Notes: generated from the letters alone by a model not told the origin. Counted from the first letter of the stretch, positions 3,985-50,572 are shown. The stretch: 52,221 nucleotides of DNA from Deltaproteobacteria bacterium (GCA_002747805.1 PDQP01000050.1:1-52221); one strand, 5' to 3'. Program-made: numbers and translations.

Positions 3985-5709
3985 TCAGATACCGGCTTTA
4001 AGATTTTCGGGAAATCTGCCGGAAACCGCAAAGTCATTAACCACATTTTGATGAATTTGCAGGGCCGCATCCACTATTTGCCTGAGGTGAGAGGTTGCAT
4101 CGGCGGATAAATCCTGAAAGCTGCCGCCATAGCCGACGAAGTTAGCCGAATCATTATTCATAACCCATTGGATTTTAATCAATACTTCGGTAAGCATTTT
4201 CAGATCATAGCCATTTTCATCCACAGAAGCTATATTCAGCCGATCACCAGGCTCAATCTGAATATCTTCATGTTCATTTTTCATAATCACAAAGCCAAGC
4301 CCGGATTCCGACAGGTTCACCACTCCAGCCGGCATGGAAACTCCCATACCGGACACGCTAAGAACCAGTCTGGGCCCGGTCTTCATGGTAAAGTAAATCC
4401 GCTGATGCCGCCTCTTTTGAATAAATTCCGAGGCAACCCTTCTCACCTTGCCGCCATCGGACAAGACCGTGCAATCAAGCCCAAGATGGCTGCTGACGGT
4501 CTGCACAATCTCGGTCGGCGAGGCCTCGGTATCAGCAAGGCCGTCCTGTTCCACCTTTTCAATATCATCACTTACCATACAGGTTGAAGGCTGCTTGATG
4601 ATAATCCTGCCGGACTTGCCCTTGAAATATCTCAGTGCCTCAAGGGAACATGCAGCACCGGACAGCATGGTCAGGGCAAACTTGCCGGTAAAAATATCGG
4701 CAACCGAACAAATAAGGGCATCTATACCGGATTCATCCGCCGCCGAAGGCATCCCCGAATTAATCAGGAAGAAATTACCCTCATTTTCCGCCAGCTGATC
4801 AACCATGCCGGGCGTACCAATATAGCTGTAACCAGCGAGCAGAGGAACTTCGGAAGAAGCAGGCAGCACCGGAATACGGCAAATCTGGTTGATATAAACC
4901 ACCAAGGGCAAAACAAGGGCCTCCGGCATCTCCTGAACCACCAGCACCGTGCCGTCAAAGCCGCCCGGAAATCTGGTAAAAACATTAAACAGCTCGGCAA
5001 TACCGCCGGCACCGGACAAGACCAGCAATAACTGACCACAGGGGATATTGTGTCCAGCCGGTTTCACTTGAGTTGCCATACTGTATGACGGGGCGTTTAA
5101 TCTGGTAAATTCGCCAATCCTCGCCCTGGCTGCCTTATGTATGGTCTTGATAAACCTGTGCTGAACCTCGTCTTCCTTATGCTCACGGGTGGGTTTGACC
5201 AGAAAATCCACCGCACCAAAGCGGAGAAAATCGATAATGGTATTTTGGGAACGGTTACTAAGGTTGCTGACAATAATCACCGGACATGGATGACTGAGCA
5301 TCAGATGCTTTAATACCGAGGTGCCGCCCATGCCGGGCATATTGACATCAAGAGTGATAACATCCGGTTTTACCTCCCTCGTCTTCTGCAGGGCCTCATC
5401 GCCGTCAGCCGCCTCGCCAACCACCTCCAGGGTGCCGTCCGACTCAATCATCTTCTTGATAATACGCCTGAAAAGTTTTGAGTCATCGACTATCAAAACC
5501 CGTTTTCTGCGGTCTGGATCATCCTCACATCCGGCCTCCAGCAGCCGGTTCTTGATGGCGACATCCGAGCTGATAATATCATCCGGCTTTTCCTTGGAAA
5601 TGGTGATCATAAAACCGCATTCCCGGCAGTTAAAGCTCTGAAACTTATCTTTTATATTGACCAGATCCACATCGTAGCGGGAACCGCAGTCTTCACAAAA
5701 AACAATCAT
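3985..5709 (-). CDS. Four-domain signalling protein: zinc ribbon, REC, degenerate CheB-like methylesterase domain and PilZ
   Basis: N-terminal CxxC...CxxC ribbon (MIVFCEDCGSRYDV...FNCRECGF). REC domain (RVLIVDDSKLFRR...PDVITLDVNMPGMGG...VKP). CheB-like domain in which LSGAGG, QEMP and SGAACS replace GASTGG, QHMP and GMGNDG. C-terminal PilZ with intact RRHQR and NLSESG motifs. Confidence 0.8.
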   Translation of the reverse strand: MIVFCEDCGSRYDVDLVNIKDKFQSFNCRECGFMITISKEKPDDIISSDVAIKNRLLEAGCEDDPDRRKRVLIVDDSKLFRRIIKKMIESDGTLEVVGEAADGDEALQKTREVKPDVITLDVNMPGMGGTSVLKHLMLSHPCPVIIVSNLSNRSQNTIIDFLRFGAVDFLVKPTREHKEDEVQHRFIKTIHKAARARIGEFTRLNAPSYSMATQVKPAGHNIPCGQLLLVLSGAGGIAELFNVFTRFPGGFDGTVLVVQEMPEALVLPLVVYINQICRIPVLPASSEVPLLAGYSYIGTPGMVDQLAENEGNFFLINSGMPSAADESGIDALICSVADIFTGKFALTMLSGAACSLEALRYFKGKSGRIIIKQPSTCMVSDDIEKVEQDGLADTEASPTEIVQTVSSHLGLDCTVLSDGGKVRRVASEFIQKRRHQRIYFTMKTGPRLVLSVSGMGVSMPAGVVNLSESGLGFVIMKNEHEDIQIEPGDRLNIASVDENGYDLKMLTEVLIKIQWVMNNDSANFVGYGGSFQDLSADATSHLRQIVDAALQIHQNVVNDFAVSGRFPENLKAGI

Positions 5710-5783
5710 ATTATAAGCCTCCGCAGGCGGGCCATGGTTATTTATGATGGTTCAAACCGCTGAAAAACAAGGCGGCAAAAATT

Positions 5784-6203
5784 TTATTTGTCCTGGGCAG
5801 AATATCTTACCTGCTTGAGATATGATTTCAGGGCCTTGTAATCATCTTCAAAAATATCCAGAAATTTGGCTCCTATTTTCATCCGCCCTTCACTTTCACT
5901 AACCCAGGCGACCTCAACGATTGCCGTCAGGGGTGCGGCGACACGTTGATCATCAACCAGCATGGATACCCCCTTGCGGTGATGCTGCCAGCCGGAAATA
6001 TCCACAGAAATACAGAGATGATCACCTTTTTTATAGTCGCCCGCCAGACAAAAGCAGATGCCGTCCTCACTCAGGTTCTCCAAGGCGGCCTTCTCGCCGG
6101 GCCCGGCGGCCATCGGATAGGCAAGACGCTTAACCGAGAGTTCTCCGCCCTTTTTTATCCTTACCTTTTCCCGCAGTTTTCTGTCCTCTGCCTTGTCTGA
6201 CAT
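5784..6203 (-). CDS. Stand-alone PilZ-domain protein
   Basis: 139 aa with the RxxxR motif (REKVR) and the D/NxSxxG motif (NLSEDG) at PilZ-typical spacing. Confidence 0.7.
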   Translation of the reverse strand: MSDKAEDRKLREKVRIKKGGELSVKRLAYPMAAGPGEKAALENLSEDGICFCLAGDYKKGDHLCISVDISGWQHHRKGVSMLVDDQRVAAPLTAIVEVAWVSESEGRMKIGAKFLDIFEDDYKALKSYLKQVRYSAQDK

Positions 6204-6220
6204 AAATAATTTACCGATTT

Positions 6221-7252
6221 TTATTTCAGGATGGTATCAATACCCTTAATCCCCGTCAAGGATGCCTTTTTAGCAAAGCTGTCATCAACCAGCCCCTCTA
6301 CCCTTTCATCATCAACCAGACCAAATTGTTTCATCACCTTTGCCATATACTGAAATTCCTCATCCAGCGGCACATACTTGTCAAAAACAATCCGGTTTTC
6401 ATTGGGGCTGGTCAGGGCATATTCAACCAGATCCGCCGGTTGATTCCAATAGGAAGCGGCTATTGCCGCCGCCTCCGGCAGATTCTTTTTTGCCCACATG
6501 CCCGAACGCACCGCCCCTGCAACCAGCTTTTCCACCTGCTCCGGGTGCTGCTCGATAAAGTCTTGCCTGACCAGCATCAGATTGCAGATAAAGCCGGGCC
6601 ACACATCCTCGGCATAGGTAAACACAGTGGAATCGCCGTTTTGCAAGGTCTTGGCCGCAAAAGGCTCGCCGACATAATAGGCATCAAGCGCCCCGGATGA
6701 CAAGGCGGCCGGCATATCGGGCGGATTCATCTCCACCACCTTCAATCTGCCGCCGAGACCGTATTTCTCGGCCAGCAGTCTAACGCTCAAATTATGGCCG
6801 GAATACCGCATCGGCACCGCCACCGTCAGCCCGGCCAAATCTTCCATTTTCTCGGCCTTTAGCTCCTTGCGGACAACAAAGGTGCTTTCATGCCGATTGC
6901 CGATATAGACCACCTTGACATCCTCACCCTGCTGCCGCAGCACAATAGCCAAGGGGGCAATGATAAAGGCCGCCTCAATATTGCCGTTGCGCAGGGCCTC
7001 GCCCATCTCGGCAAAGGAAGCAAATTTAACCGCAGAAAAACGAAGGCCCTCCCCTTCCCTGGATGCATAATCCAAAAGCGGGGCGGCCAGATTGGTGATA
7101 ACCGGCATATAGCCCATATGCACTACCTCACGGCCGCCGGAATCGAAATTGACCCGGTAGTGCAGAAAACTGATAAAAACAAACCAGCCCGCCAGAATAA
7201 CCCCAACCAGTACACTTCTCGGCACACGTGCCAGATAATTATTAAACGGCAT
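6221..7252 (-). CDS. ABC transporter substrate-binding protein, NitT/TauT (NMT1-like) family, membrane-anchored
   Basis: The body matches the SsuA/NrtA/NMT1-like fold (GYMPVITNLAAPL..., AAFIIAPLAIVL). Start trimmed to M34 (MPFNNYLARVPRSVLVGVILAGWFVFISF, a TM anchor). The longer track ORF would run through the upstream ATPase gene. Confidence 0.75.
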   Translation of the reverse strand: MPFNNYLARVPRSVLVGVILAGWFVFISFLHYRVNFDSGGREVVHMGYMPVITNLAAPLLDYASREGEGLRFSAVKFASFAEMGEALRNGNIEAAFIIAPLAIVLRQQGEDVKVVYIGNRHESTFVVRKELKAEKMEDLAGLTVAVPMRYSGHNLSVRLLAEKYGLGGRLKVVEMNPPDMPAALSSGALDAYYVGEPFAAKTLQNGDSTVFTYAEDVWPGFICNLMLVRQDFIEQHPEQVEKLVAGAVRSGMWAKKNLPEAAAIAASYWNQPADLVEYALTSPNENRIVFDKYVPLDEEFQYMAKVMKQFGLVDDERVEGLVDDSFAKKASLTGIKGIDTILK

Positions 7253-8033
7253 CGGGAACCCCCAGCATAAAAAACACCTCTTTCCGCAGTTTAAGCAGCT
7301 CCGGCTCCTCGGTAATATGCCGCGGATGAGGATGCACCAGTTTATGGTCAAGCTGCACCGCCGCCGGTCTGCCGCTTAAAATCACAATGCGGTCTCCCAT
7401 CACCAGGGCATCATCAATATCATGGGTTACAAAAATAACGCTTTTACCAGTGTATAAGTGCATCATCACCACTTCTTCCCGCATCCTCATATGGGTCAGG
7501 AAGTCAAGGCCGGTAAAAGGCTCGTCCATAAACAGGGTGCGGGGATCAACCGCCAGGGCTCTGGCCAGCTCCACCCGCCGCTGCATCCCGCCGGAAAGCT
7601 CGTATGGATAACGCTGACCGGCTCCAGTCAGCTCCACCATATCGATATATTCCTGAATCTTGTTATTTCTTTCCTCTTCGTCCTTGATATTCCTAAGTCC
7701 CAGGCCGACATTTTGCTGAACCGTCATCCAGGGCAGCAAGGCACTATGCTGATAGACAAAGATATGATCGGAACTGGGGCCTCTCATGGGTTTTCCGTCC
7801 ACCAGCACCTCTCCGGCCGTAGCCTGCTCAAAACCGGCAATAATCCTGAGCAGGGTCGATTTGCCGCAGCCGGACGGGCCGAGGATGCAGACCATCTCCC
7901 CTTCTTCAAACTCAAGATTGATGTCTTCCAGAATCCGCAGCCTCTTGCCGGGACTGCTGCTTTCAAGTTCTCTCGATTTGCGTCTTTTTTCAGTGTACTC
8001 CTTGCACAAACCGGAAATAACAATATGACTCAT
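7242..8033 (-). CDS. ABC transporter ATP-binding protein (NitT/TauT family)
   Basis: Walker A GPSGCGKST, signature LSGGMQRR, Walker B LFMDEPF and H-loop VTHD. Confidence 0.9.
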   Translation of the reverse strand: MSHIVISGLCKEYTEKRRKSRELESSSPGKRLRILEDINLEFEEGEMVCILGPSGCGKSTLLRIIAGFEQATAGEVLVDGKPMRGPSSDHIFVYQHSALLPWMTVQQNVGLGLRNIKDEEERNNKIQEYIDMVELTGAGQRYPYELSGGMQRRVELARALAVDPRTLFMDEPFTGLDFLTHMRMREEVVMMHLYTGKSVIFVTHDIDDALVMGDRIVILSGRPAAVQLDHKLVHPHPRHITEEPELLKLRKEVFFMLGVPDAV

Positions 8034-8119
8034 GGCAATAATCTCCGTCCGGCAATTACGGCAGCACCCAAAAGTACACCAAGACCAACTTTTTTCAAGC
8101 TACTAAACATATTATTCAT
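8030..8119 (-). CDS. Possible 29-aa hydrophobic micro-protein between the permease and ATPase genes
   Basis: ATG...TGA ORF encoding MNNMFSSLKKVGLGVLLGAAVIAGRRLLP. Its TGA overlaps the ATPase ATG (ATGA), consistent with translational coupling. It has one predicted TM span. No convincing SD sequence was seen. Confidence 0.25.
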   Translation of the reverse strand: MNNMFSSLKKVGLGVLLGAAVIAGRRLLP

Positions 8120-8170
8120 AAATAAAAATATCAACTTAAATCCCAAATCCCCAATCCCCAAAGGACCACC

Positions 8171-8947
8171 CTAACGGGACAGATTCGCCCAGGAAACCGA
8201 ATCACTTTTTCCCAGCCATTTCATTACCATATCAAGGCCGAGACCAGTCAGGCCAATCACCACCATACCGGCCATCACATAATCCATCCTCAAGGCATTA
8301 CGTGAATCCAGAATCAGGTAGCCAAGGCCGGAATCAACCGCAATCATCTCGGCCGCCACCACCACCAGCCAGGCAATGCCCAGGGTAATCCGCAGGGCAG
8401 TAAGCACCGAGGGCAGCATGGCCGGAACAATAATCCGGTTGACAATCTCCCAGGTGGTCAGCCCGAAATTGGCCGCAACCTGAAAGTAGGTCGGCTTGAT
8501 TGATTTAACCGCAAGGGTGGTAGAGACCACCAGCGGAAAAAAACTTGACAGGAAAATAAGAAAAACGGCAGGCATATCACCAATGCCGAACCAGAGCATC
8601 GCCAAAGGAATCCAGGCCAGGGGAGAAATGGGCCGCATAAACTGGATAATCGGGTTAAAGGCATCCATCAGGTTCTGACTGCGGCCAAAGAGCATCCCCA
8701 GGGGAACCGCAAACAGGATGGCAAGATAAAAACCGGCCGTTACCCTGAACAGACTGGCTATGGTATGCTTAATCATGGAGCCGTTTAAGGTTAGTTCCCA
8801 AATACTGGCAACCACTCTTAAAGGCCCGGGGAAGACCTGGCTGCTCCAGCCGCCGAAAGCACTAGCCAGAAACCAGACCAGGGTAACACCGCAAAAAGTA
8901 ACGAAAGGTAAAAAAAAACTTCTCGGCAATATTTTCATGGCAAACAA
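8171..8947 (-). CDS. ABC transporter permease (NitT/TauT family)
   Basis: 258 aa with about six hydrophobic spans and a BPD-transport core similar to TauC/SsuC (AAEMIAVDSGLGYLILDSRN). Confidence 0.85.
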   Translation of the reverse strand: MFAMKILPRSFFLPFVTFCGVTLVWFLASAFGGWSSQVFPGPLRVVASIWELTLNGSMIKHTIASLFRVTAGFYLAILFAVPLGMLFGRSQNLMDAFNPIIQFMRPISPLAWIPLAMLWFGIGDMPAVFLIFLSSFFPLVVSTTLAVKSIKPTYFQVAANFGLTTWEIVNRIIVPAMLPSVLTALRITLGIAWLVVVAAEMIAVDSGLGYLILDSRNALRMDYVMAGMVVIGLTGLGLDMVMKWLGKSDSVSWANLSR

Positions 8948-8982
8948 ACTACAAATTGATAAAAAATTACTTCATACCCCTG

Positions 8983-9942
8983 CTAATTACTGCCTGCAGG
9001 TAAAAGCCTGACAATCTCCTTAGCCAGCTCCACATGCTGCAAACCGGCCATACTTTTGCGGTCATAGGCGATAGCCGGCAGGGAAACAATCTGGGATTCC
9101 TTGATCTTGCTGTCATCGGCAATGATGGTGTCAAGCATCCTGTCGCCATATAGTTCCCGCAGCTTGGTATAAATGAGCTTGGATGCGACCTCTTCCTTTC
9201 TATACATGGTAATCAGCACCCGGAAAACCAGATCCGGATTGATCTTGCCGTGCATCAGGTTAATCAGCTTCTGAATCTTTTTCACCCCGTCAGCGGCCAG
9301 AAACTCACAAGGACAGGGGATAATCGCCATTCTGGAAGCGGTCAGGGCATTCAAGGTAAAAAATTCAATGGCCGGCGGCGTATCAATCAGGATATAATCA
9401 AACTCATCCTTCAATAAATTCAGCCTGTCCCGCAAGAGAAACTCAAAAAACCTTTTCCCGAAATGTCTCTTGTTCAAAAGGGACATATTCACATTTGACG
9501 GCAGGATAAATAAACCGGCATAACGGGTTGGAATGATATAATCGCCGAAACTATCCGCACCAGAATCAACCATTTCAAAAAAAGAATTACGGTTGCGGTA
9601 GCCAAGGGCAAGACTGAGGTTGGCCTGAGCATCAAAGTCAATCAGCAGCACCTTTTTCTTCAGCAAAACCAGGGATAAACCAAGATTAAGACAGGTGGTA
9701 GTCTTGGCCACCCCGCCCTTCTGATTGGTTACGGTAATCACCGTTTGCCTAGGCAACTGCTGCAGGGCAAGCTCCCGGTCAAAAAAATTCAGGCCGCCCT
9801 TTTCCTCACCCGCCTTAACCAGCTCAACCTTACCCTTGCACTGCTTGCAACGAAGCCGGTCAAGATTTTCCGGAACCTTGCCGCTCTTTAATTTGTGCCG
9901 CTTACCGCACCCTGTGCATACAATGAACATTTTTTTCCCCAT
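8983..9942 (-). CDS. ParA/MinD-family ATPase with an N-terminal four-Cys zinc ribbon
   Basis: CTGCGKRHKL...LRCKQCKGK ribbon followed by the deviant Walker A (TNQKGGVAKTTT) and LLIDFDAQANLS. The start may instead be the ATG at 9930 (MFIVC...), which has a GGGGA RBS. Confidence 0.8.
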   Translation of the reverse strand: MGKKMFIVCTGCGKRHKLKSGKVPENLDRLRCKQCKGKVELVKAGEEKGGLNFFDRELALQQLPRQTVITVTNQKGGVAKTTTCLNLGLSLVLLKKKVLLIDFDAQANLSLALGYRNRNSFFEMVDSGADSFGDYIIPTRYAGLFILPSNVNMSLLNKRHFGKRFFEFLLRDRLNLLKDEFDYILIDTPPAIEFFTLNALTASRMAIIPCPCEFLAADGVKKIQKLINLMHGKINPDLVFRVLITMYRKEEVASKLIYTKLRELYGDRMLDTIIADDSKIKESQIVSLPAIAYDRKSMAGLQHVELAKEIVRLLPAGSN

Positions 9943-9967
9943 CTAACTAAATTTTTCGTCAGCCAGC

Positions 9968-11068
9968 CTACGCCATGTGCAGATGTCCCCGAACGGTCTC
10001 CAATATAGCACCAGGTATGGCATGATCATTAACCACCCGATCCACCACCTGCTGCTGAATGGCATTTTCGGTAAGATTGGGAAAGACACAATAATGATTG
10101 TCATGGGCCATGGTAACACCGCCGTATTCACGGATATTAGCCAGCCCCATTGCCCCGTCATCGCCGATACCGCCAAGCAGCACCCCGGCAATAAACCCGT
10201 CAAAGGACTCGGCCGCTGAATTATAAAGCATGTCAATGGGCTTATCTACCGCTTCACCCACCATAACCGCATATTTTTCATCGCCGATATGATCAAGGAC
10301 CAGGGAATTTTCATTGGAACCTATATAGCAAACCCCCGGCTCAATAATGGTGTCTTCCTGCAGGGCCTTGATTCTCCAGGAGACAAACTTGTCAAACTCC
10401 TCGACAAAGGAAGGCAGAATCTTATTGGAAATTGACTGAATAACAATGATGCTGGTCTGCGGCATCCGCATCATATGGGCCATTGTCCGAATAACCGTAT
10501 TCGGCCCGCACAGGTTAGTCCCCATCAGCACCAAGGCCTCGGGAGCCGCCCCGCCGCCTGCCGCCCCCGCCTCATCCGCCGCAAAAATCGGCAGCTTGGC
10601 CCGGCGGATATTATCCACATTGACCGAGGCCGCCATCTTGACCCGTTCGATGATTCTCTCCCGCCCTTCATTCAAATCCCGGGAAACTGCACCGGAAGGC
10701 TTAGGCACAAAATCAACCACGCCAAGCCTCAAGGCCTCAAAGGTAACCGCCCCGTCAGTAAACAAGGAGCTTAATACCACAATGGGAATCTGACACTTGA
10801 TCATCACATGCCTGGTGGTGCTAATACCGTTCATCACCGGCATATCCATATCCAGGGTAATCACGTCCGGTTTTAGCTCTTTTGCCTTTTCCAAGCCGAG
10901 CAAGCCATTTTTCGCATCGCCGACCACCTCAATCATGGGGTCGGAATTCAATATATCGGATACGGCCCGGCGCATCACGCCTGCATCATCTACGACCAGA
11001 ACTCTAATTTTATCTTCCATGCTCAACCTGCTCAACCAAGTGGTTAGATTTTCAAGGTGATAAATCAC
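9968..11068 (-). CDS. REC plus degenerate CheB-like methylesterase-domain protein
   Basis: REC domain (IRVLVVDDAGVMRR...DVITLDMDMPVMNG...VPKP). CheB-like domain in which GTNLCG and IQSIS replace GASTGG and TQHMP, while GIGDDG is retained. GTG start at 11068, with an alternative ATG at 11020 (MEDKIRVLVVDD). Confidence 0.8.
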   Translation of the reverse strand: MIYHLENLTTWLSRLSMEDKIRVLVVDDAGVMRRAVSDILNSDPMIEVVGDAKNGLLGLEKAKELKPDVITLDMDMPVMNGISTTRHVMIKCQIPIVVLSSLFTDGAVTFEALRLGVVDFVPKPSGAVSRDLNEGRERIIERVKMAASVNVDNIRRAKLPIFAADEAGAAGGGAAPEALVLMGTNLCGPNTVIRTMAHMMRMPQTSIIVIQSISNKILPSFVEEFDKFVSWRIKALQEDTIIEPGVCYIGSNENSLVLDHIGDEKYAVMVGEAVDKPIDMLYNSAAESFDGFIAGVLLGGIGDDGAMGLANIREYGGVTMAHDNHYCVFPNLTENAIQQQVVDRVVNDHAIPGAILETVRGHLHMA

Positions 11069-11073
11069 CAGAC

Positions 11074-15500: not shown

Positions 15501-16495
15501 TCATCCTGATCAAAGTTAAGCCCTTCGTCATCATCATCGGGAAACATCTCCTCAAGACCAAGGGTCAGTTCATCTCCGGCCGCATTCCGGCTGGCCCCTT
15601 CCGCCTCATATTCGACTTCTGCCTTGGCTGCAATATCATCATGTTCATCAAAAACCTGCTCGTCGGCAGCAGCCTCTTCATCGGGCAGCATCTCATCCAG
15701 CCCAAGGGTAAGCTCCTCCCCGGCATCGTCAGACAAAGCTGGTTCATCAACCTGATCATCGGCAGCCTCAGGTTTATCATCAAGAGCATCAGGTTCAGCA
15801 GCGGCTAACTGTTCATCAGGCTCATCCTGAACAACGGATTCCTCTTCAAGCTCGGCTGCCAGCCGCTTAACCGCCTCATCAGCGGTATCTTCATCGGCAA
15901 ACAGCTCATCCACACCCAGCTCCAGATCATCGGCCTCTGCTCCGGCTGCATCAACGCCGTCAGCCGCCGGAGCATCACTTAGGTCAACCACATCATCAAG
16001 GGTCAGATCGACCTGATCCACCTCATCATCGGCAAAGGCCTGTTCTTCAATCTCCGGCTTAGCCTCTTCGGCATCAGCCTTTTTATCCTGCTCAAAATAA
16101 CTGAGAATATCGGCCAGAATATCTTCGGTATCGGTTAATTCCTCGTGGTTTTTCGCCACATCATCAATCAGCAGGGCCATCCGGTCCTTGCCGCTGATCA
16201 GGGTATCAATCAGGGCCGAATTTACCTCCAGCTCCCCCTGCCGCACTGCTTCCAGCAGGTTTTCCAGCTTATGGGCAAGCTCGCTGGTTACTTTCAGGCC
16301 CAAGTAGGCCGAGGAACCCTTAATGGTATGGGCATCTCTAAAGATGTCATCAATTATTTCCCTGTTTTCCGGCTCTTCCTCAAGTCTGATCAGGTTCGCT
16401 TCCATTTCGTCCAGGTGTTCACCAGCTTCGGCGATAAACTCTGGAAGCAGTTCCATATCAATCATTTTAAGCTCCTCGCTAAAAGGGAAATCCAT
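12515..16495 (-). CDS. cheA: Chemotaxis histidine kinase CheA, 1326 aa, with extra HPt-like modules and long acidic/proline-rich linkers
   Basis: P1 HPt (FRDAHTIKGSSAYLG), a dimerisation region, an HATPase domain (N box IRNAVDHG, G1 DDGKG, G2 GRGVGMD) and a C-terminal CheW-like P5 domain. About 800 aa of additional sequence lie between P1 and P3. Confidence 0.9.
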   Translation of the reverse strand: MDFPFSEELKMIDMELLPEFIAEAGEHLDEMEANLIRLEEEPENREIIDDIFRDAHTIKGSSAYLGLKVTSELAHKLENLLEAVRQGELEVNSALIDTLISGKDRMALLIDDVAKNHEELTDTEDILADILSYFEQDKKADAEEAKPEIEEQAFADDEVDQVDLTLDDVVDLSDAPAADGVDAAGAEADDLELGVDELFADEDTADEAVKRLAAELEEESVVQDEPDEQLAAAEPDALDDKPEAADDQVDEPALSDDAGEELTLGLDEMLPDEEAAADEQVFDEHDDIAAKAEVEYEAEGASRNAAGDELTLGLEEMFPDDDDEGLNFDQDEISPGAAQAPDDEDELSFDLDEHGGIAAESDWDGTDEAPVDEELSPIGDISPVDHDESWESDTVEIGEVYAQEEEDEELYTIFIEQLKSNLLEIRDIALQIPASENRSSQIELINERIHELQASANYMGYEKLGTFYDGWQRKLEGYQERFFLNEAPALEEILENGVNIYFDAIMKSFEKLEGVERLSVSDDVAVEQDHGDYDEQNDTELFVIFLEQIRENFAKIEAVGVKFDGAEDPSEGVAEIRELVVRMRAAANYMGYEKLTDIYDEWLKDIEDGVKDGLKDDCFEHLGECVKKYLSKITEIFPPLAEKTDDEAEEAVSVEPAETVGGETADESEIMAAEKPSALPSELELMGEPELDGGAGEETLKDRMDELLSYDDLGDDSGDFYDPLADDLADGLAADEGAVVDRLSSALDSALGIGGKTPSLPDDEVQPLDLELPSEPAIQEPAIQEPVLAAAVDETKQKEAEVKPPAEAKAAVQEVKPPAETKSKTADREVKPPVETEVKTADAGESKQPKPPAEDGAAEDEKSAAAAKTDLEKRVEKRREEMRKSGSKQAADISDREKVLRQSLRIDAAKIDELLNQAGELVINRAWFSQLYNEMRRLEAQLQHNPSINKKYFKEVRGFSFKLNEAIVALGRVANDLQESVMKVRMLPISQLFNRYPRLIRDLVHGTDKDVRLEIMGADTELDKMIIEEIADPLVHVIRNAVDHGIETVAERQRLGKNERGLLKLDAYHEGSHVVIEVEDDGKGLEPEVIKAIALEKNLVTPDQLARMSYKEIIELIMRPGFSTAAKITRTSGRGVGMDVVRKNLENLNGTLEIDSSPGEGTRFRIKIPLTLAVIKALLVNVGGALFTIPLIAVDETLRVRKGEINSIKGNEVIYLRDSAIPLIRLSGVFNLASSARAAENERPFVVIVSSGSGRVGLVVDDLRGQEEVVIKPLPDYLRDNKGFSGATILGDGRISLILDIHELVNLTIGRQNLKIGELLPMTENE

Positions 16496-16528
16496 CCCCT
16501 TTTTTTACTCAAAACAATACCCTAACTA

Positions 16529-17182
16529 TCAATCCTGCAAGTCTCCCGGCCAAGTCTTATCTCCAGCCATGGCCTTATTGTCCACAATCAGAATATCATA
16601 CAGCTTGAAATTCGTCATAAAATATTCAATGGTCTCCAGCTCTTCCCGCACCGCCATAATATCTTCTTCCTGCGGGGCCGAATCCTCCTCACCCTGCTTA
16701 GTCTCCCGGCCATCGGTAAGCTGTTCAAGCACCGGCCCTGCCCGCTGGATGGTCTTCCAGACCAGCAGTACCACCTCCTGAAAGTTAGTGGAAAGGTCGT
16801 TAAGGGATTTGCCGATCCCGTCCATCTCGGGACAGGCATATTCCGGCACCGACAATTCCAGATCGCCGTCTGCTATCCGGCAGGCAAATTTCGACATTTC
16901 ACCCGCAGGACGCAGGATAAAACGGTATAACATAATCAGGGCGGCAACGCCTCCGGCCAAAATCAGGGCCAAACAAATCAGGATAGAAGCCCGCATCCCC
17001 AGAAGCAGGGAGGAGGCCGCCGCATCGCCGCCGCGGGAAACAGCCGAGACCAGGCTGGCAGCAAAATCAGCACTGCCGAGGCGAAGGGTCAGCCAGCCGG
17101 CGGCCAACAGGGGGACAATCAAGGTCAGGATGAAAAGTACCCAGATAAAAACATGCGTTTTCCGTAATTGAAGCCTTGCCAT
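16529..17182 (-). CDS. Two-TM HAMP-domain protein without a recognisable output domain
   Basis: Start trimmed to MARLQLRK... at 17182 (GGAG RBS), because the longer track ORF overlaps cheY. Two hydrophobic spans are followed by a HAMP signature (FILRPAGEMSKFACRIADGDLELSVPEY) and an acidic tail of about 90 aa. Confidence 0.65.
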   Translation of the reverse strand: MARLQLRKTHVFIWVLFILTLIVPLLAAGWLTLRLGSADFAASLVSAVSRGGDAAASSLLLGMRASILICLALILAGGVAALIMLYRFILRPAGEMSKFACRIADGDLELSVPEYACPEMDGIGKSLNDLSTNFQEVVLLVWKTIQRAGPVLEQLTDGRETKQGEEDSAPQEEDIMAVREELETIEYFMTNFKLYDILIVDNKAMAGDKTWPGDLQD

Positions 17183-17243
17183 TTCACTCCTGCCCTGAAA
17201 GACCGCACCGTTAATTGAACGTAAATAAAATAAACCCGAAAAC

Positions 17244-17588
17244 CTAAATAAGTTCCAGCAGCTGATCAAGATTATGCTTGTTGACAAAACCCAAGGCACC
17301 GACCTCAGCCGCCCGGCCGCTGTACTGCTCCTTATCCAGATTTGAAAAGAAGACAATCCTGGCCCCGGAATCAAGGGTCATAATTTCCCTTGCCGCCGAA
17401 AATCCATCCATATCACGCATGGTTACATCCATAATAACCAGTTCCGGCCGATGCTGGTCATACATATCGATAGCCTCGCGGCCGTTTCTTGCCTCGGCGG
17501 CAATCTGGTATCCCTTCTTTTCCAGCAGATTACGAACCATTTTACGCATGATTGATGAATCATCAACTATCATTATCTGTTTGCTCAT
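17244..17588 (-). CDS. cheY: Single-domain response regulator CheY
   Basis: 114 aa with IMIVDDSSIMRK, the phospho-acceptor context LVIMDVTM and a conserved K in FVNKH. Confidence 0.9.
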   Translation of the reverse strand: MSKQIMIVDDSSIMRKMVRNLLEKKGYQIAAEARNGREAIDMYDQHRPELVIMDVTMRDMDGFSAAREIMTLDSGARIVFFSNLDKEQYSGRAAEVGALGFVNKHNLDQLLELI

Positions 17589-17634
17589 TGCCCGGATTTC
17601 CTTCCCTGTTAAATAAAACGCAATAAAAAAACAC

Positions 17635-18138
17635 CTACTCAGCCATTGCCTTCAGGTGCTTAATCTCGTCTGTGTGCAGAATACGGCCAAAGTTAAGCAG
17701 AATCAAAAGACGCTCATCAATCTCACACACTCCGTCTATATATTGACTTTCAAGACCGGCGGTAACAATTTCCGGCGGCGGTTCAATGGTTTTGGTAAGA
17801 ATTTTCAAGACCTTGGTTACTGAATCAACCCGAAAGCCGGTAATCCGGCCTTCAATTTCAAGGATCAGGATCCAGACCTTCTCCTCATCCTCTTCCGCCT
17901 TTTTCTGCAGCAGGTTCAGCCTCTTACGCAGATCGATAACCGGAATAATATTACCGCGCAGGTTAATCACCCCTTCCACAAAGGCAGGAGAATTGGGAAT
18001 GGAGGTAATGGCCGCATCACGGATAATTTCCCTGACCTTTAGAATTTCCACTCCGAACAGTTCCGTTCCGATGGAAAAACCAACCAGCTGCATGGAATCT
18101 TCAATGACAGTTTTCTGACCTGTACTCGTAACGTCCAT
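17635..18138 (-). CDS. cheW: Chemotaxis coupling protein CheW
   Basis: 167 aa with QLVGFSIGTELFGVEILKVREI...VINLRGNIIPVIDLRKRL, typical of the CheW fold. Confidence 0.9.
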   Translation of the reverse strand: MDVTSTGQKTVIEDSMQLVGFSIGTELFGVEILKVREIIRDAAITSIPNSPAFVEGVINLRGNIIPVIDLRKRLNLLQKKAEEDEEKVWILILEIEGRITGFRVDSVTKVLKILTKTIEPPPEIVTAGLESQYIDGVCEIDERLLILLNFGRILHTDEIKHLKAMAE

Positions 18139-18237
18139 CGTTACTCCTTAAATTTTACTGGTTAAAATCCGCAAAAGGCAGGCAAGGCCAAAACCTTTTG
18201 CGGATTTTCTTGCATAAAAAACACCCAGCCCGAAAAA

Positions 18238-20826
18238 CTAGGCACCGGCCTCGATCTTAAACTTACGAACCTCATCGGCAAGTTCAGTCGAGAGCTTTCT
18301 CATGTTCTCGGAAATGTTAATAACCTCACCGGCTCCGTTATAGGTGTTTTCCGCCTGAGCTGCACCTTCCTCGGTGGCGGCCACAACCCGCTTGGAACGT
18401 CCGGCCTGAGCGGCAGTCAGCTGGTCAATAGATTCTGAACGGGAAACAACCTCACGCATATCACCATCAGCTTCCTGGGCCAGGCGGTTAGAGTTTTCCA
18501 CCAGTTTATCGATGTTTTCAACCTGCTGAACCAGACGGCCAAGGGCCTCTTCCGCAGCAGCCCGTCTGGCACCCTGCTGACCGGCCATATTCATAATCTC
18601 GGATGAAAAGGCGTTTACTTCGGCCATAATGTTCTGCACTGACTTGGAACTTTCAGACAGGGAGTCTGCAACTCTGGTAATATCTTCAATAGCCTGAATG
18701 TTACCCTGACCACCCTGGGAGATTTTCTCCAGAGCAAGCTGGGACTGATTAGACAGCTTGGTACCGTCCTCAACCCTCTTGGTTGAGTCCTTAATCAGCT
18801 TGGTAATCTCGTTGGCCGCATCCGCAGAACGCTGGGCCAGCTTACCAACCTCGTCTGCAACCACAGCAAAACCCTTACCGTGTTCACCGGCACGGGCGGC
18901 CTCAATGGCGGCGTTCAGGGCCAGCAGGTTGGTCTGTTCGGTAATTTCGGTAATAACCGAGATGATCTCTGAAATCTGTTCGGATGATTCGGCAATGGCC
19001 TGCATACCTTGCACGGTGGCGTTTACCGTATCACGACCCTCTTGTGCGGCCTGCAGCACTTCCTGACCCTGCTCGCGGGAGCTTTTGGCTGCCTCGGCCA
19101 GCAGATTAACCGCTTCCCGCATGGCATCCACAGCGGCGGTGGCTTCCTGCACCGATTCTCCCTGCTTGGTTGCGGTAGCCACAACCTTACCACCAGTCTC
19201 ACCCATATCGGAAACCCTGGCGATAACCGTGTTAGCTTCCTCTTTCTGCGAACCTGTAGCATCCGCCACCTGCTCCATGGAGCTAACCAGTTCCTGAAGT
19301 CTGGCACCGGAGTCGGTAGCTTCCTGCTTCTGGGCGGCGGCGTTGCTGGCAACCTCACCGGCAGTCTTACCCATTTCGGAAATCAGACCCTGCATTTCCT
19401 GCATCATGGCAAGGTTCTTCTCGGCACGATCTCGGTTGGCCTGGGCACGCTGGGCCACGTTACCGGCACTGCTTTCAACCGCAATTGATGAACTATTAAC
19501 CAGGGTAAAGGAACGCCTTAGCTCCTGAATCAGCTCGTTAACGGCGGCGGCCATATCACCGACCTCGTCCTTACTTTCAACCGCCACGTTCTGGGTAAAG
19601 TCACGATTAGCAGCAACCCTTTGCACCGTACGGGCAATCCTTACAATCGGGTTAGCAACGGTACGGGCAGTAAACAGCCAAATAAAAATTGCCGCCACCA
19701 GAATAACCAGGGTAATAACCAGCACCGTGGTCATAGCCTGATTCTGAAACTCAGCAATACGGATGGAGGAGGCCAGAATATCTTCCTCGTAGGCACCAGC
19801 CGAAATAACCAGGTGCCAGGGAGCAAAATAGGCAAAGTGTACGGTTTTCTTTTTGGCTACCGGGTCGCCCGGGTTTTGCCACATATAGGTTTGAGAACCA
19901 AACTCGCCCTCTCTTAGTGACTTGGCCGCCTCAATCCTTTCCTTAACGATCAGGGTTCCAGTCTCAACGTCCTTGATGTTAGAAATATCCTCACCATCAC
20001 GCTTACCATTTCTTGAAACAAGATAAACACCCTTTTCATCAAGAACGGTAATATAACCAGATTTACCAATGGTAACATCATATAATGACTGCCGGATGTC
20101 CTTATCAATCTCGATCAGTTCACCGACATAGATGGCACCGATAACCTGACGATTGCTATCAAAAATAGGAGCATATACGTTTTGGTATAATCGGCCAACC
20201 ACCTCACTCATACCCCGGAAGGTATCTCCTCTTAATACCGTGGAAATTACCGGATTTTCCTTACCATCCGGCTTGGTGCGGGGGATATAGGTGCCGACCG
20301 CCCGGCTACCGTCCGCCTTACGGATAGTGGTGGCCACCCGCAGCATATCACCGGCATCATTCATCCTTTGAAAGATGGTAACATCAATCCCGCTGTTAAT
20401 CCTTTTAACCTCATCAACAATATTCAGGCCGGATTCACCGCCCGCCTGAGTCTGACCAAACCAGAGGGAAGGCAGGCTGACCGGTACCGTGGAACCGGTA
20501 AACTGGTTAACCGCATTCCAGCGGACATTTTCGCCAGTCAGATCCAGGCTAACACTGCCCTCACGGCCAATAAAGTCCTTGGCATGTTCCATTGCTGTAT
20601 TAAGTTCTCTGACAACAACATCATACTCAAACTTGATGGTCTCATAGGAAGTCTTAACAATCCGGTCAACTGAACGGTATGCAATTTTGGACGTGTCATC
20701 ACGAGCATGCTCCTGCACCTGCAAACCGGAGAAATAGTTAACAACTGAAACAACGATCAAGGGGACAATGGTAAGAAGAATACCGATTGTCAGCAATTTT
20801 GGTACCAGCCTAAGATTCTTTAGCAT
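18238..20826 (-). CDS. Methyl-accepting chemotaxis protein with a large Cache-type periplasmic sensor and HAMP
   Basis: 862 aa. TM1 is followed by a periplasmic region of about 340 aa with Cache-like motifs, then TM2, HAMP and the signalling hairpin tip [34 protein letters not shown]. Confidence 0.9.
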
Positions 20827-50495: not shown

Positions 50496-50572
50496 GGTCC
50501 CGTAGCTCAGCAGGATAGAGCACCAGATTCCTAATCTGGGTGTCGCAGGTTCGAATCCTGCCGGGATCACCA
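50496..50572 (+). tRNA. tRNA-Arg (anticodon CCT)
   Basis: Manual cloverleaf. The 7-bp acceptor stem is GGTCCCG/CGGGATC with one G-T pair. D arm GCTC-AGCAGGATA-GAGC. Anticodon arm CCAGA-TTCCTAA-TCTGG. Variable loop GTGTC. T arm GCAGG-TTCGAAT-CCTGC. Discriminator A with an encoded CCA. Confidence 0.9.

What the first reader, a model, noticed from the sequence alone, without database searches (positions are those of the whole stretch)
3985..20826. 17-kb single-strand chemosensory supercluster without CheR, combining Che core, ParA, ABC importer and PilZ modules
Thirteen co-oriented minus-strand genes are separated by gaps of at most 137 bp, and two pairs overlap (12515/12522 and 7242/7252). In order they are a Cache-MCP, CheW, CheY, a HAMP-only membrane protein, a 1326-aa CheA, PATAN-REC-CheB-like, REC-CheB-like, a zinc-ribbon ParA/MinD ATPase, permease, ATPase and SBP of a NitT/TauT-type ABC system, PilZ, and zinc-ribbon-REC-CheB-like-PilZ. 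No CheR, CheZ/CheC/CheX/CheD or flagellar genes are visible, and none of the three CheB-like domains looks catalytically competent. Canonical chemotaxis adaptation by methylation and demethylation therefore seems absent. At the same time the number of REC receivers (four) and of c-di-GMP-type effector domains (two) is unusually high. I do not recognise this combination as any described Che pathway class. It looks like a dedicated signalling machine with an output other than flagellar rotation.
Basis: partly seen in the sequence, partly recalled or inferred. Interest (0 to 1): 0.85.

Follow-up and report, generated by a model that had tools for sequence, protein, structure and literature searches.

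The report
Chemosensory operon with three dead CheBs
This is a real 13-gene bacterial "chemical-sensing" operon, conserved across sulfate-reducing Desulfobacterota and present in part in a cable bacterium, in which the usual memory enzymes have been replaced by three catalytically dead look-alikes and which carries its own transporter, positioning ATPase and c-di-GMP sensors.

Summary
Window 3985-20826 (minus strand) carries 13 co-oriented genes with gaps of at most 137 bp and two overlaps.

- **CheB-like domains.** All three keep the CheB fold and a phosphorylatable receiver Asp. All three lack the Ser-His-Asp triad (A/Y/D, N/S/D, G/E/S-or-C). They fall into three paralogue types that recur across related clusters.
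- **Missing genes.** No CheR, CheC/D/X/Z, flagellar or pilus gene lies in the 52-kb window. No CheR lies within 10 kb of the related clusters tested (L088-L090 were not screened). Canonical che loci in the same data set do have one.
- **Conservation.** The full gene order recurs in Desulfobulbus rhabdoformis and a related MAG. A core (MCP-CheW-CheY-HAMP-CheA, dead CheBs, Zn-ribbon ParA, ABC permease/ATPase/binding protein) recurs in Desulfobacterales. The che part is seen in a cable bacterium. Three Zn-ParA homologues picked without regard to context all sat in this cluster.
- **CheA.** It carries two His-less pseudo-Hpt modules.

My reading is a methylation-independent chemosensory machine. 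I infer that its output runs through a PATAN domain (type IV pilus or polarity) and PilZ (c-di-GMP), that a ParA positions the array, and that a transporter feeds in a signal. I found no description in the literature. I rate it a new variant of a known kind.

The parts
18238..20826 (-). Transmembrane chemoreceptor (862 aa). Layout: TM1, periplasmic Cache_3-Cache_2, TM2, HAMP, then a very long signalling hairpin with arms of about 210 and 214 aa (about 58-60 heptads). There is no C-terminal pentapeptide.
   Evidence: Pfam, (Cache_3-Cache_2 3e-61, MCPsignal 9.2e-42, HAMP 3.6e-12). TM helices at 11-29 and 367-385. Arm lengths and a single strict methylation-consensus match. Orthologue alignment.
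17635..18138 (-). CheW coupling protein (167 aa).
   Evidence: Pfam CheW 4.9e-36. It is 54-81% identical to the CheW of the related clusters.
17244..17588 (-). Single-domain CheY-like receiver (114 aa). It has DD at 9-10 and a phospho-acceptor Asp in 'VIMDVTM'.
   Evidence: Pfam Response_reg 3e-26. Sequence.
16529..17182 (-). HAMP-only membrane protein (217 aa from Met65; the ORF extends to a TTG at 17374). It has two TM helices, a loop of about 37 aa, a HAMP domain and a C-terminal tail of about 80 aa.
   Evidence: Pfam HAMP 1.2e-4. TM helices. A protein of this type sits between CheY and CheA in L082, L083, L085, L086, L087 and L088.
12515..16495 (-). CheA histidine kinase (1326 aa; 1316 aa in another gene call). 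Order of parts: Hpt, acidic linker, two pseudo-Hpt modules, linker, dimerisation domain, ATPase, CheW-like P5. It has no receiver domain.
   Evidence: Pfam. Best PDB matches are CheA structures 6s1k and 1b3q. The linker at aa 130-400 is 38% Asp+Glu.
16172..16453 (-). True Hpt (P1) domain of CheA, aa 15-108, with the phospho-His in 'DAHTIKGSSAYLGL'.
   Evidence: Pfam Hpt 1.3e-18. Motif scan.
14546..15304 (-). Two pseudo-Hpt modules of CheA (about aa 398-520 and 530-650), with the motif L[RK][AS]SANYMGY. The phospho-His position is not conserved among orthologues.
   Evidence: hhalign of the pseudo-Hpt alignment against the Hpt alignment: probability 99.1%, E 1.9e-18. Motif table across 15 CheAs. 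Single sequences get no Pfam hit.
11074..12522 (-). PATAN(DUF4388)-REC-CheB-like protein (482 aa), 'type A' pseudo-CheB. The nucleophile loop is GAAEGGYG. The triad positions read Ala/Tyr/Asp.
   Evidence: Pfam. Alignment to CheB structure 6ymz. Triad table. AlphaFold model (pLDDT 77) matches full-length CheB 1a2o/6ymz (target-normalised TM-score 0.80-0.84) and the CheB catalytic domains 1chd/3sft (0.87-0.91). The former active-site loops are invariant in 15 orthologues.
9968..11020 (-). REC-CheB-like protein (350 aa from Met17; the ORF starts at 11068), 'type B' pseudo-CheB. The nucleophile loop is GTNLCGPN. The triad positions read Asn/Ser/Asp.
   Evidence: Pfam. Triad tables. This gene is immediately upstream of the Zn-ParA gene in every locus that has one.
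8983..9942 (-). Zinc-ribbon ParA/Soj-type ATPase (315-319 aa). It has CxxC...CxxC at the N-terminus and a deviant Walker A, KGGVAKT.
   Evidence: Pfam AAA_31 2.4e-43, CbiA, Zn_ribbon_4. Best PDB matches are Soj/ParA. 120 of 120 best homologues keep the Walker A and 117 of 120 keep the Zn ribbon. Three homologues picked without regard to context all lie in the same che cluster.
8171..8947 (-). ABC importer permease of the NitT/TauT family.
   Evidence: Pfam BPD_transp_1. NCBIfam matches to SaoP, NtrB, TauC and SsuC are all below their cut-offs.
7242..8033 (-). ABC importer ATPase.
   Evidence: Pfam ABC_tran 3.2e-33. NCBIfam matches are sub-threshold.
6221..7252 (-). Membrane-anchored substrate-binding protein (343 aa), NMT1_2/SsuA-like. 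Its substrate is unknown.
   Evidence: Pfam NMT1_2 1.3e-24. SsuA_fam scores 120.8 bits against a cut-off of 163.5. PDB matches 3un6 and TauA 6ssy. N-terminal TM helix.
5784..6203 (-). Stand-alone PilZ protein (139 aa) with REKVR and NLSEDG motifs.
   Evidence: Pfam PilZ scores 28.3 bits against a cut-off of 22.5. Motifs read. Orthologues are at the same position in L082 and L083.
3985..5709 (-). Zn-ribbon-REC-CheB-like-PilZ protein (574 aa), 'type C' pseudo-CheB. The nucleophile loop is LSGAGGIA. The triad positions read Gly/Glu/Ser or Gly/Glu/Cys, depending on the alignment. The PilZ domain has RRHQR and NLSESG motifs.
   Evidence: Pfam. Triad tables. The PilZ motif residues R433, R437, S467 and G470 are invariant or nearly so in 12 orthologues. 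Its Zn ribbon aligns with that of the ParA.
20827..21247 (-). A 420-bp divergent intergenic region upstream of the receptor gene; the likely promoter region. It holds TTGCAT-16 nt-TATAAT near 21005-21035 and an AAGGAAGG ribosome-binding site before the ATG.
   Evidence: Read directly from the sequence. The consensus scan listed only a weaker site at 21122-21095. Not tested experimentally.

Best explanation
**Shown**
- This is one operon-like unit that encodes a complete chemoreceptor array: a Cache receptor, CheW and CheA.
- CheA can in principle feed four receiver domains that keep the phospho-acceptor Asp. These are one CheY and three REC-CheB-like proteins.
- The three CheB-like domains keep the CheB fold. 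For type A this is shown by sequence and by a structure model that also reproduces the closed REC/catalytic-domain packing; for types B and C by sequence profile only. Types A and C also keep conserved former active-site loops.
- All three have lost the Ser-His-Asp triad, so they cannot demethylate receptors.
- No methyltransferase (CheR) is encoded in cis, here or in the relatives tested.
- A Zn-ribbon ParA ATPase, a NitT/TauT-type ABC importer with a membrane-tethered binding protein, and PilZ domains with intact c-di-GMP-binding motifs are conserved members of the cluster.

**Inferred**
- The dead CheBs act as phosphorylation-gated binding modules. They may bind the receptor or the array, giving occupancy-based feedback or acting as phosphate sinks in place of covalent adaptation.
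- They also carry output domains. PATAN would couple the array to the type IV pilus motor or to the polarity machinery, as in cyanobacterial PatA-type regulators. PilZ would gate the response by c-di-GMP.
- The ParA positions or segregates the arrays, as ParC and PpfA do in other bacteria.
- The ABC system supplies a transport-linked or binding-protein-linked input, possibly relayed by the HAMP-only membrane protein.
- The single-domain CheY may still talk to flagella in flagellated hosts.
For: **Domains.**

**Triad loss.** Loss is seen in all three proteins and is conserved within each orthologue group. Only 3 of the 120 best homologues of the PATAN protein keep S-H-D.

**Fold and conserved loops.**
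- The model of the PATAN protein superposes on full-length CheB (1a2o/6ymz, target-normalised TM-score 0.80-0.84).
- The former active-site loops are the invariant parts of the domain (E293 G294 G295 G297; S409 G410 G415; Q432 P434 C437).
- The same holds for type C.

**Receivers.** The receiver Asp is present in every one.

**CheR.**
- None among the window ORFs scanned.
- A tblastn with CheR hits 11 canonical che loci. It hits none of L001-L010, L012 or L082-L087.

**Synteny.**
- Complete 13-gene order in L082 and L083; 12 of 13 genes in L085.
- The core is present in L086, L003, L006 and L007. L012 has che genes and pseudo-CheBs but no Zn-ParA or ABC genes.
- The che part is present in L087, which ends before any ParA/ABC position.

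**Output and partners.**
- PATAN binds PilB1 and PilC, and cyanobacterial Tax systems lack CheR and CheB (bioRxiv 10.1101/2021.06.11.447907).
- A cable bacterium (a group I recall as non-flagellated) carries the che part of the cluster.
- PilZ motifs are intact.
- The ParA is Soj-like with a deviant Walker A.
Against: - No pilus, gliding or polarity gene lies in the window. The PATAN-to-pilus link is an analogy only.
- In one relative, flagellin and FlgK genes abut the cluster. A normal CheY is present.
- A CheR or an active CheB elsewhere in the genome was not testable.
- A few members of the type A family keep Ser and Asp (S-Y-D). Desulfobacterales type B proteins read T/S-E-D. Residual or altered catalysis in the wider family cannot be excluded.
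- The receptor has some Glu/Gln pairs that could in principle be methylated.
- Co-transcription is inferred only from spacing. The terminator and promoter scans were no better than shuffled sequence.
Confidence: 0.55

Rival explanations
1. This is an ordinary flagellar chemotaxis pathway. CheY-P is the only motor output. Adaptation is done by a CheR and an active CheB encoded elsewhere. The dead CheBs are accessory phosphate sinks or array components.
For: A canonical single-domain CheY, CheW, CheA and a transmembrane receptor are present. Flagellin and FlgK genes lie directly downstream of the orthologous cluster in L083. A CheX gene lies near the cluster in L088. As I recall, multi-receiver phosphate sinks are known in other bacteria.
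Against: The che part of the cluster is retained in Ca. Electronema, a cable bacterium; as I recall, cable bacteria glide and lack flagella. PATAN, PilZ, ParA and ABC genes are conserved members rather than passengers. No CheR lies within 10 kb in the related loci tested, whereas canonical che loci in the same data set have one adjacent.
Confidence: 0.25
2. This is an 'alternative cellular function' system whose output is not motility. It would control c-di-GMP-dependent surface behaviour or matrix production, or the activity of the co-encoded transporter, much as the Wsp and Dif systems control non-motility outputs.
For: There are two PilZ domains with intact motifs. EAL-HDOD, cNMP-PilZ and further PilZ genes lie next to the Desulfobacterales versions. 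The ABC importer, plus a TauE permease and a second HAMP protein in L088-L090 and (HAMP plus TauE) in L085, is invariably linked. As I recall, Che systems without CheR and CheB exist (Dif).
Against: There is no diguanylate cyclase, phosphodiesterase or transcription-factor output in the window cluster. PATAN domains are so far tied to pilus-based motility. A ParA for array positioning is typical of motility-type arrays.
Confidence: 0.15
3. The cluster is a chance juxtaposition of independent operons (che genes, a ParA, an ABC transporter, PilZ genes) with no shared function.
For: The largest gap (137 bp) separates the permease and ATPase genes. A hairpin plus T-run lies at the end of the receptor gene. 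Co-transcription was not measured.
Against: The same gene set recurs in more than 10 loci, down to about 40-50% protein identity. Where the order is shuffled (L085, L088-L090), membership is retained. Two gene pairs overlap.
Confidence: 0.05

Closest known systems
Cyanobacterial Tax/Pix chemosensory systems (Synechocystis PixG/PixH/PixI/PixJ/PixL; PatA-type PATAN-REC regulators)
   Same: A PATAN-REC regulator and a single-domain CheY sit together with CheW, a receptor and CheA. No CheR and no active CheB are present (for the cyanobacterial side; here).
   Different: - Here PATAN-REC is fused to a CheB-like domain, and two further dead CheBs are present.
- CheA has no C-terminal receiver.
- The receptor has a periplasmic Cache sensor rather than a photoreceptor.
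- ParA, ABC importer and PilZ genes are part of the unit.
- No pilus genes are nearby.
Pseudomonas aeruginosa Pil-Chp system (ChpA, PilG/PilH, PilI, PilJ, PilK, ChpB); recalled from my own knowledge
   Same: The CheA carries multiple Hpt-like modules. Orthologues here alternate up to three Hpt and two pseudo-Hpt modules and give faint FimL_C hits. There are several competing receivers.
   Different: Pil-Chp has an active CheR (PilK) and CheB (ChpB), a receiver on ChpA and no PATAN domain. Here the extra modules lack the phospho-His and the CheBs are dead.
CheB protein-glutamate methylesterase (Salmonella 1A2O, Pectobacterium 6YMZ)
   Same: The REC plus catalytic-domain architecture and fold are retained. 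For the type A protein the matches are sequence E 7.5e-41 and target-normalised TM-score 0.80-0.84.
   Different: Ser164, His190 and Asp286 are replaced (A/Y/D, N/S/D, G/E/S-or-C). PATAN, Zn-ribbon or PilZ domains are added. There is no partner CheR in cis.
ParA-like ATPases in che clusters: Vibrio ParC/ParP and Rhodobacter sphaeroides PpfA; recalled from my own knowledge
   Same: A ParA/Soj-type ATPase with a deviant Walker A is encoded inside the che cluster and is strictly linked to it.
   Different: It has an N-terminal MJ0042-type zinc ribbon. No ParP-like partner is present. Orthology to ParC or PpfA was not tested. It is always followed by ABC transporter genes.
c-di-GMP inputs to chemotaxis: YcgR, MapZ-CheR1, the Azospirillum Tlp1 PilZ domain, Caulobacter Cle proteins; recalled from my own knowledge
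   Same: PilZ domains with intact binding motifs are placed inside a chemosensory pathway.
   Different: Here PilZ is fused to a receiver plus a dead CheB. It is not fused to a receptor and does not act on CheR or on the motor.
Che pathways without methylation adaptation (Myxococcus Dif; Helicobacter pylori); recalled from my own knowledge
   Same: There is no CheR and no active CheB in the pathway.
   Different: Those systems simply lack CheB. This one keeps three conserved CheB-derived pseudoenzymes.

Membership tests
Chemosensory (Che) pathway core | A receptor with an MCP signalling domain, CheW, and a CheA with Hpt, dimerisation, HATPase_c and P5 domains | tested here: met
   Pfam hits all lie above the gathering cut-offs. 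The CheA P3-P5 region matches CheA structures at E 2.7e-99.
Chemosensory (Che) pathway core | Receiver domain(s) with a phospho-acceptor Asp | tested here: met
   The Asp56-equivalent is present in all three REC-CheB-like proteins and their orthologues. CheY carries 'MDVTM'.
CheB methylesterase | Receiver plus CheB_methylest fold | tested here: met
   Pfam PF01339 at 1.2e-31, 5.5e-28 and 7.5e-15. The type A model matches 1a2o and 6ymz. Fold was modelled for type A only.
CheB methylesterase | Catalytic triad Ser164-His190-Asp286 | tested here: not met
   The triads read A/Y/D, N/S/D and G/E/S-or-C. The loss is conserved in orthologues. The three proteins are therefore not filed as CheB enzymes.
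Methylation-based adaptation (CheR/CheB) | A CheR methyltransferase associated with the pathway | tested here: not met
   Tested in cis only. No PF01739 hit among the window ORFs scanned. A CheR tblastn gives hits in 11 canonical loci but none in the window, L001-L010, L012 or L082-L087. L088-L090 were fetched later and were not screened. A genome-wide search was not possible.
Methylation-based adaptation (CheR/CheB) | Conserved methylation-site consensus or a C-terminal pentapeptide on the receptor | tested here: inconclusive
   There is one strict consensus match, and it is not conserved among orthologues. Some partly conserved E/Q pairs exist. No xWxxF tail is present.
Tfp-class / cyanobacterial Tax-like chemosensory system | A PATAN-REC regulator plus a single-domain CheY in the cluster, without CheR or an active CheB | tested here: met
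.
Tfp-class / cyanobacterial Tax-like chemosensory system | A hybrid CheA with a C-terminal receiver | tested here: not met
   No Response_reg hit in the 1326-aa CheA.
Tfp-class / cyanobacterial Tax-like chemosensory system | Class assignment by MiST/Wuichet-Zhulin models; linkage to pilus genes or a pilus phenotype | not testable with these tools
   The class HMMs are not available here. No pil genes lie in the window or in the flanks seen.
che-cluster ParA ATPases (ParC/PpfA-like) | A ParA/MinD ATPase with a deviant Walker A, encoded in che genes and conserved with them | tested here: met
   KGGVAKT is present in 120 of 120 homologues. Every context examined is this che cluster.
che-cluster ParA ATPases (ParC/PpfA-like) | Orthology to ParC or PpfA, and a ParP-type partner | not tested
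   No reference sequences were at hand. The best PDB relatives are Soj/ParA. Only one short CheW is present in the cluster.
PilZ c-di-GMP receptors | A PilZ domain with RxxxR and [D/N]xSxxG motifs | tested here: met
   Pfam scores of 28.3 and 26.1 bits against a cut-off of 22.5. The motifs are REKVR/NLSEDG and RRHQR/NLSESG and are conserved in orthologues. Binding itself was not testable.
NitT/TauT-family ABC importer | Permease, ATPase and an NMT1/SsuA-type binding protein | tested here: met
   Substrate-level equivalogs (nitrate, taurine, sulfonate, Sao) all fall below their cut-offs, so the substrate is unknown.

The most novel reading that the evidence does not exclude
Three paralogous pseudo-CheB response regulators, which recur across related clusters, replace covalent methylation with phosphorylation-gated binding. 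Together with a dedicated ParA and a dedicated ABC importer with a tethered binding protein, they form a distinct, undescribed class of chemosensory machine. This machine would steer pilus- or gliding-based behaviour in Desulfobacterota. It would also be a candidate system behind cable-bacterium taxis.

A bolder variant is that the invariant Glu/Tyr/His of the remodelled 'AEGGYG' pocket performs a new chemistry on the receptor.
Probability: 0.3. Interest if true: 0.8.

Novelty: new variant of a known kind. Interest (0 to 1): 0.62.

Why it matters
Adaptation by receptor methylation is treated as a near-universal core of bacterial chemotaxis. Here a lineage-wide system keeps three CheB-derived proteins under clear selection while abolishing their chemistry and dropping CheR from the operon.

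If these proteins are phospho-switched binders, they would be a clean natural example of enzyme-to-adaptor conversion in signalling. They would also represent an alternative adaptation or output logic.

The same cluster hard-wires three further things into a chemoreceptor array: a ParA positioning ATPase, c-di-GMP sensors and an ABC importer. This gives a testable handle on transport-coupled sensing.

Parts of the cluster are present in a cable bacterium, and a homologue of its pseudo-CheB is encoded by a Desulfonema species (a genus I recall as filamentous and gliding). The molecular basis of taxis in these organisms is, as far as I know, poorly understood.

Current annotations call these proteins 'CheB' and 'chromosome partitioning protein'. 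Both names are misleading.

Tried and rejected
1. **Exact look-up of the CheA product** failed because of a different start codon. The PATAN protein worked instead.
It missed the closest relatives and returned mostly unrelated response regulators. It was still useful, because it gave five partial clusters and 11 canonical che loci that served as CheR-positive controls.
3. **Ten literature searches** found no description of PATAN-REC-CheB, dead CheBs, or this cluster.
   - The Wuichet and Zhulin class paper and the Kjeldsen cable-bacteria paper are not held.
   - The unusual Geobacter che clusters do contain cheR and cheB, so they are a different thing.
4. **Pfam on the single pseudo-Hpt segments** gave nothing. 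Only profile-profile comparison showed the homology.
5. **Promoter and terminator scans** were no better than shuffled sequence. Rfam and tRNA scans found nothing in the cluster. Tandem repeats were trivial.
6. **The receptor methylation-site analysis** was inconclusive.
7. **SaoP/SaoA/SaoX** were considered and rejected as the identity of the ABC system, because all scores fall well below the equivalog cut-offs.
8. **A truncated receptor** was considered and rejected for the HAMP-only gene. The same short protein is conserved at the same position in six other loci.
   - CheB was validated because S164, H190 and D286 fall at the expected indices and the same columns appear in the PDB alignment.
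   - CheR was validated by its positive controls.

Full report
**1. Observation**

The ORF list shows 13 minus-strand ORFs from 20826 down to 3985. With the most likely starts, the intergenic distances in gene order are:
- 99, 46, 61 and 33 bp
- an 8-nt overlap at 12515/12522
- 5-53, 25, 35 and 137 bp
- an 11-nt overlap at 7242/7252
- 17 and 74 bp

| Gene | Size | Domains |
|---|---|---|
| Receptor | 862 aa | Cache_3-Cache_2, HAMP, MCPsignal |
| CheW | 167 aa | CheW |
| CheY | 114 aa | Response_reg |
| HAMP-only protein | 217 aa | two TM helices, HAMP |
| CheA | 1326 aa | Hpt, H-kinase_dim, HATPase_c, CheW |
| PATAN protein | 482 aa | PATAN/DUF4388, REC, CheB_methylest |
| REC-CheB-like | 350 aa | REC, CheB_methylest |
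| Zn-ParA | 319 aa | Zn_ribbon_4, ParA |
| Permease | 258 aa | BPD_transp_1 |
| ATPase | 263 aa | ABC_tran |
| Binding protein | 343 aa | NMT1_2 |
| PilZ | 139 aa | PilZ |
| Zn-REC-CheB-like-PilZ | 574 aa | Zn_ribbon_4, REC, CheB_methylest, PilZ |

Hydropathy places two TM helices around the Cache domain. It places two in the HAMP-only protein and one N-terminal anchor on the binding protein.

The rest of the window is housekeeping. It encodes PurC, TyrRS, NifU/NifS, ThyX, HtpG, Sdh/Frd, PCMT, Mfd, BamA, DnaA, CmoA/B-like methyltransferases and Fic. It contains no CheR, CheC/D/X/Z, flagellar or pilus gene.

**2. The three CheB-like domains are dead, and they are three recurring kinds**

A PDB alignment (against CheB 6ymz) and alignments anchored on E. 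coli CheB give the residues at Ser164/His190/Asp286:

| Protein | Triad positions | Nucleophile loop |
|---|---|---|
| PATAN protein (type A) | Ala/Tyr/Asp | GAAEGGYG |
| Middle protein (type B) | Asn/Ser/Asp | GTNLCGPN |
| Zn-REC-CheB-like-PilZ (type C) | Gly/Glu/Ser or Cys | LSGAGGIA |

These are not random decay. Each pattern is shared by the orthologues.
- **Type A.** The motif is 'GA[AGS]EGGYG'. Of the 120 best homologues, 54 read A-Y-D, 25 S-Y-D, 24 A-H-D and 12 G-Y-D. Only 3 read S-H-D.
- **Type B.** The motif is 'GT[NTS]L.GPN', with N/T/S at the first position, then E/D/S, then D.
- **Type C.** The motif is 'SGAGG[IY]', with all three residues lost.

The former active-site loops are the most conserved parts of the domains (invariant columns). 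An AlphaFold model of the type A protein (mean pLDDT 77) superposes on full-length CheB. Target-normalised TM-scores are 0.80-0.84 for 1a2o/6ymz and 0.87-0.91 for the catalytic domains 1chd/3sft.

All receivers keep the phospho-acceptor Asp. So these are CheB-derived pseudoenzymes under selection, presumably for binding.

The accessory domains swap between types in different lineages. PATAN is on type A here but on type C in Desulfobacterales. The Zn ribbon is on type C here but on type A there. This argues that the three proteins work as one module.

**3. No CheR in cis**

A tblastn with E. coli CheR found a CheR next to CheB in 11 canonical che loci that the genome scan happened to return. 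It found none in the window or in L001-L010, L012 and L082-L087.
- L088-L090 were fetched afterwards and were not screened.
- Genome-wide absence could not be tested.
- The receptor has no pentapeptide tail and no conserved canonical methylation site, but this evidence is weak.

**4. Conservation**

The organism is a Desulfobulbaceae-like bacterium. Its best relatives are a 'Deltaproteobacteria bacterium' MAG at 65% identity and Desulfobulbus rhabdoformis at 61%. The same sequence also occurs on a Logan contig.

- **Full order.** All 13 genes recur in the same order in D. rhabdoformis (L082) and in MAG PDTN01 (L083). In L085, 12 of 13 recur with the transporter and type C genes shuffled.
- **Core.** It comprises receptor, CheW, CheY, HAMP protein, CheA, type A/C pseudo-CheB, type B pseudo-CheB, Zn-ParA, permease, ATPase and binding protein. 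It recurs, wholly or in part, in:
  - a Thermodesulfobacteriota MAG (L086)
  - a Desulfatitalea MAG (L007)
  - other Desulfobacterales (L006)
  - a MAG binned as Gammaproteobacteria (L003)
- **Partial version.** A Syntrophobacteraceae locus (L012) has che genes and pseudo-CheBs but no Zn-ParA or ABC genes.
- **Cable bacterium.** Ca. Electronema sp. PJ (L087) carries the che part. Its CheA P3-P5 region is 61% identical and its CheW 66%. The locus ends inside the type B gene, so the ParA/ABC part is unseen there.
- **Context test.** I looked up three Zn-ParA homologues at 47-48% identity, chosen for contig length rather than context. All three lie in the same cluster, followed by a second HAMP protein, a TauE/SafE permease and the ABC genes. 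PilZ, cNMP-PilZ, cNMP-PATAN, Roadblock/LC7, a second ParA, CheX or EAL-HDOD genes lie nearby.

The Zn-ParA family is large and uniform. All 120 best hits are at least 46% identical, 117 of 120 keep the Zn ribbon and 120 of 120 keep KGGVAKT.

**5. Further anatomy**

- **CheA.** It has one true Hpt ('DAHTIKGSSAYLGL') and two internal modules with the motif L[RK][AS]SANYMGY.
  - These modules are homologous to Hpt (hhalign probability 99.1%, E 1.9e-18).
  - The phospho-His position varies among orthologues, so I call them pseudo-Hpt.
  - Desulfobacterales orthologues alternate up to three Hpt and two pseudo-Hpt modules and give faint FimL_C hits. This resembles ChpA-like multi-Hpt kinases.
  - The linkers are strongly acidic.
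- **PilZ domains.** Both carry RxxxR and [DN]xSxxG motifs, and these are conserved in orthologues.
- **Zn ribbons.** The two align with each other.
- **ParA.** It is closest to Soj/ParA structures.
- **ABC system.** It belongs to the NitT/TauT family. Every substrate-specific NCBIfam model scores below its cut-off. The binding protein's best solved relatives are an uncharacterised binding protein (3un6) and TauA. The substrate is unknown.

**6. Mechanism**

*Shown:*
- a complete array-forming core
- four phosphorylatable receivers
- three catalytically dead but conserved CheB folds
- intact c-di-GMP-binding motifs
- a conserved ParA
- a conserved ABC importer

*Inferred:*
- CheA-P partitions phosphoryl groups among CheY and the three pseudo-CheBs.
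- Phosphorylation opens the REC/CheB-like interface, as it does in CheB. This exposes a conserved cleft that binds the receptor or another partner without modifying it, giving feedback by occupancy or acting as a phosphate sink.
- PATAN takes the signal to the type IV pilus motor or to the polarity apparatus. In Synechocystis, PATAN domains bind PilB1 and PilC, and the Tax systems likewise lack CheR and CheB.
- PilZ makes the response depend on c-di-GMP.
- The Soj-like Zn-ParA positions or partitions the arrays, by analogy with ParC and PpfA (my own knowledge).
- The ABC system and its tethered binding protein provide a transport-linked input. The HAMP-only membrane protein may relay it.

*Rivals:*
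- A plain flagellar pathway with CheR and CheB in trans. Flagellar genes abut the cluster in L083.
- A non-motility, c-di-GMP- or transport-centred function.
- Chance juxtaposition, which the synteny data make very unlikely.

**7. Comparison and novelty**

The system works most like the cyanobacterial PATAN-REC/CheY Tax systems and the multi-Hpt Pil-Chp systems. It fails membership on the hybrid CheA-REC feature, and its class could not be assigned. The three proteins are not CheB enzymes, because the triad test is not met.

ParA ATPases in che clusters, PilZ inputs to chemotaxis, and CheR/CheB-less pathways are each known individually (my own knowledge). I could not find any description of the following, in ten full-text searches:
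- a recurring trio of pseudo-CheB response regulators
- pseudo-Hpt modules in CheA
- a Zn-ribbon ParA in a che cluster
- an ABC importer as a fixed member of a che cluster

The public annotations simply read 'CheB' or 'chromosome partitioning protein'.

I rate it a new variant of a known kind, of solid interest to chemotaxis and Desulfobacterota/cable-bacteria researchers. The main uncertainties are the output, and whether methylation enzymes act in trans.

Noticed in passing
window 14546-15304 (-), inside cheA: There are two pseudo-Hpt modules with the motif L[RK][AS]SANYMGY. They are homologous to Hpt, but the phospho-His position is not conserved among orthologues. Desulfobacterales orthologues alternate up to three Hpt and two pseudo-Hpt modules.
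   Followed up: yes
window 15298-16105 and 13798-14545 (-), cheA linkers: The linkers are very long and low in complexity. Residues 130-400 are 38% Asp+Glu. There are short peptide repeats (EPAIQ; EVKPPAE) and small DNA tandem repeats at 14137-14173 and 15755-15795.
   Followed up: partly
L088, L089, L090; also the end of L085: In the Desulfobacterales versions, a second HAMP-only membrane protein and a TauE/SafE-family permease sit between the Zn-ParA and the ABC genes; L085 carries a HAMP-TauE pair at the far end of the locus instead. Around L088-L090, Roadblock/LC7, a second ParA, cNMP-PilZ, cNMP-PATAN, CheX or EAL-HDOD genes lie nearby. None of these is present in the window.
   Followed up: partly
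window 8983-9942 and 3985-5709 (-), N-termini: The MJ0042-type zinc ribbons of the ParA and of the type C pseudo-CheB align with each other (BLASTP E 0.002). This suggests a shared partner or shared localisation signal.
   Followed up: partly
L082 16860-18098: The Desulfobulbus rhabdoformis orthologue of the last gene is only 412 aa and lacks the PilZ domain. The stand-alone PilZ gene is retained there.
   Followed up: no
window 18220-18246 (-): A 12-pair hairpin followed by a T-run overlaps the stop codon of the receptor gene. It could be an internal attenuator that sets receptor-to-kinase stoichiometry. The terminator scan overall was not above the shuffled expectation.
   Followed up: no
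window ~21005-21035 (-): A sigma-70-like site, TTGCAT-16 nt-TATAAT, lies in the 420-bp divergent region between the receptor gene and nifU. It was read by eye and was not scored by the scan.
   Followed up: no
L003 (JAHECY010000006.1): A MAG labelled Gammaproteobacteria carries the same cluster core at 43-61% identity. The explanation is either horizontal transfer or mis-binning.
   Followed up: no
window 40546-41862 (+) and 50496-50572 (+): A dnaA gene lies in the window, with BamA, Mfd and ComF-like genes upstream. A tRNA-Arg(CCT) is followed by a DUF4172-Fic gene at 50868-51998, which could mark an integration hotspot.
   Followed up: no
window 23269-24195 (+): The ThyX-like ORF (308 aa) shows two separate matches to the Thy1 profile. 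It may be an internally duplicated or extended ThyX.
   Followed up: no
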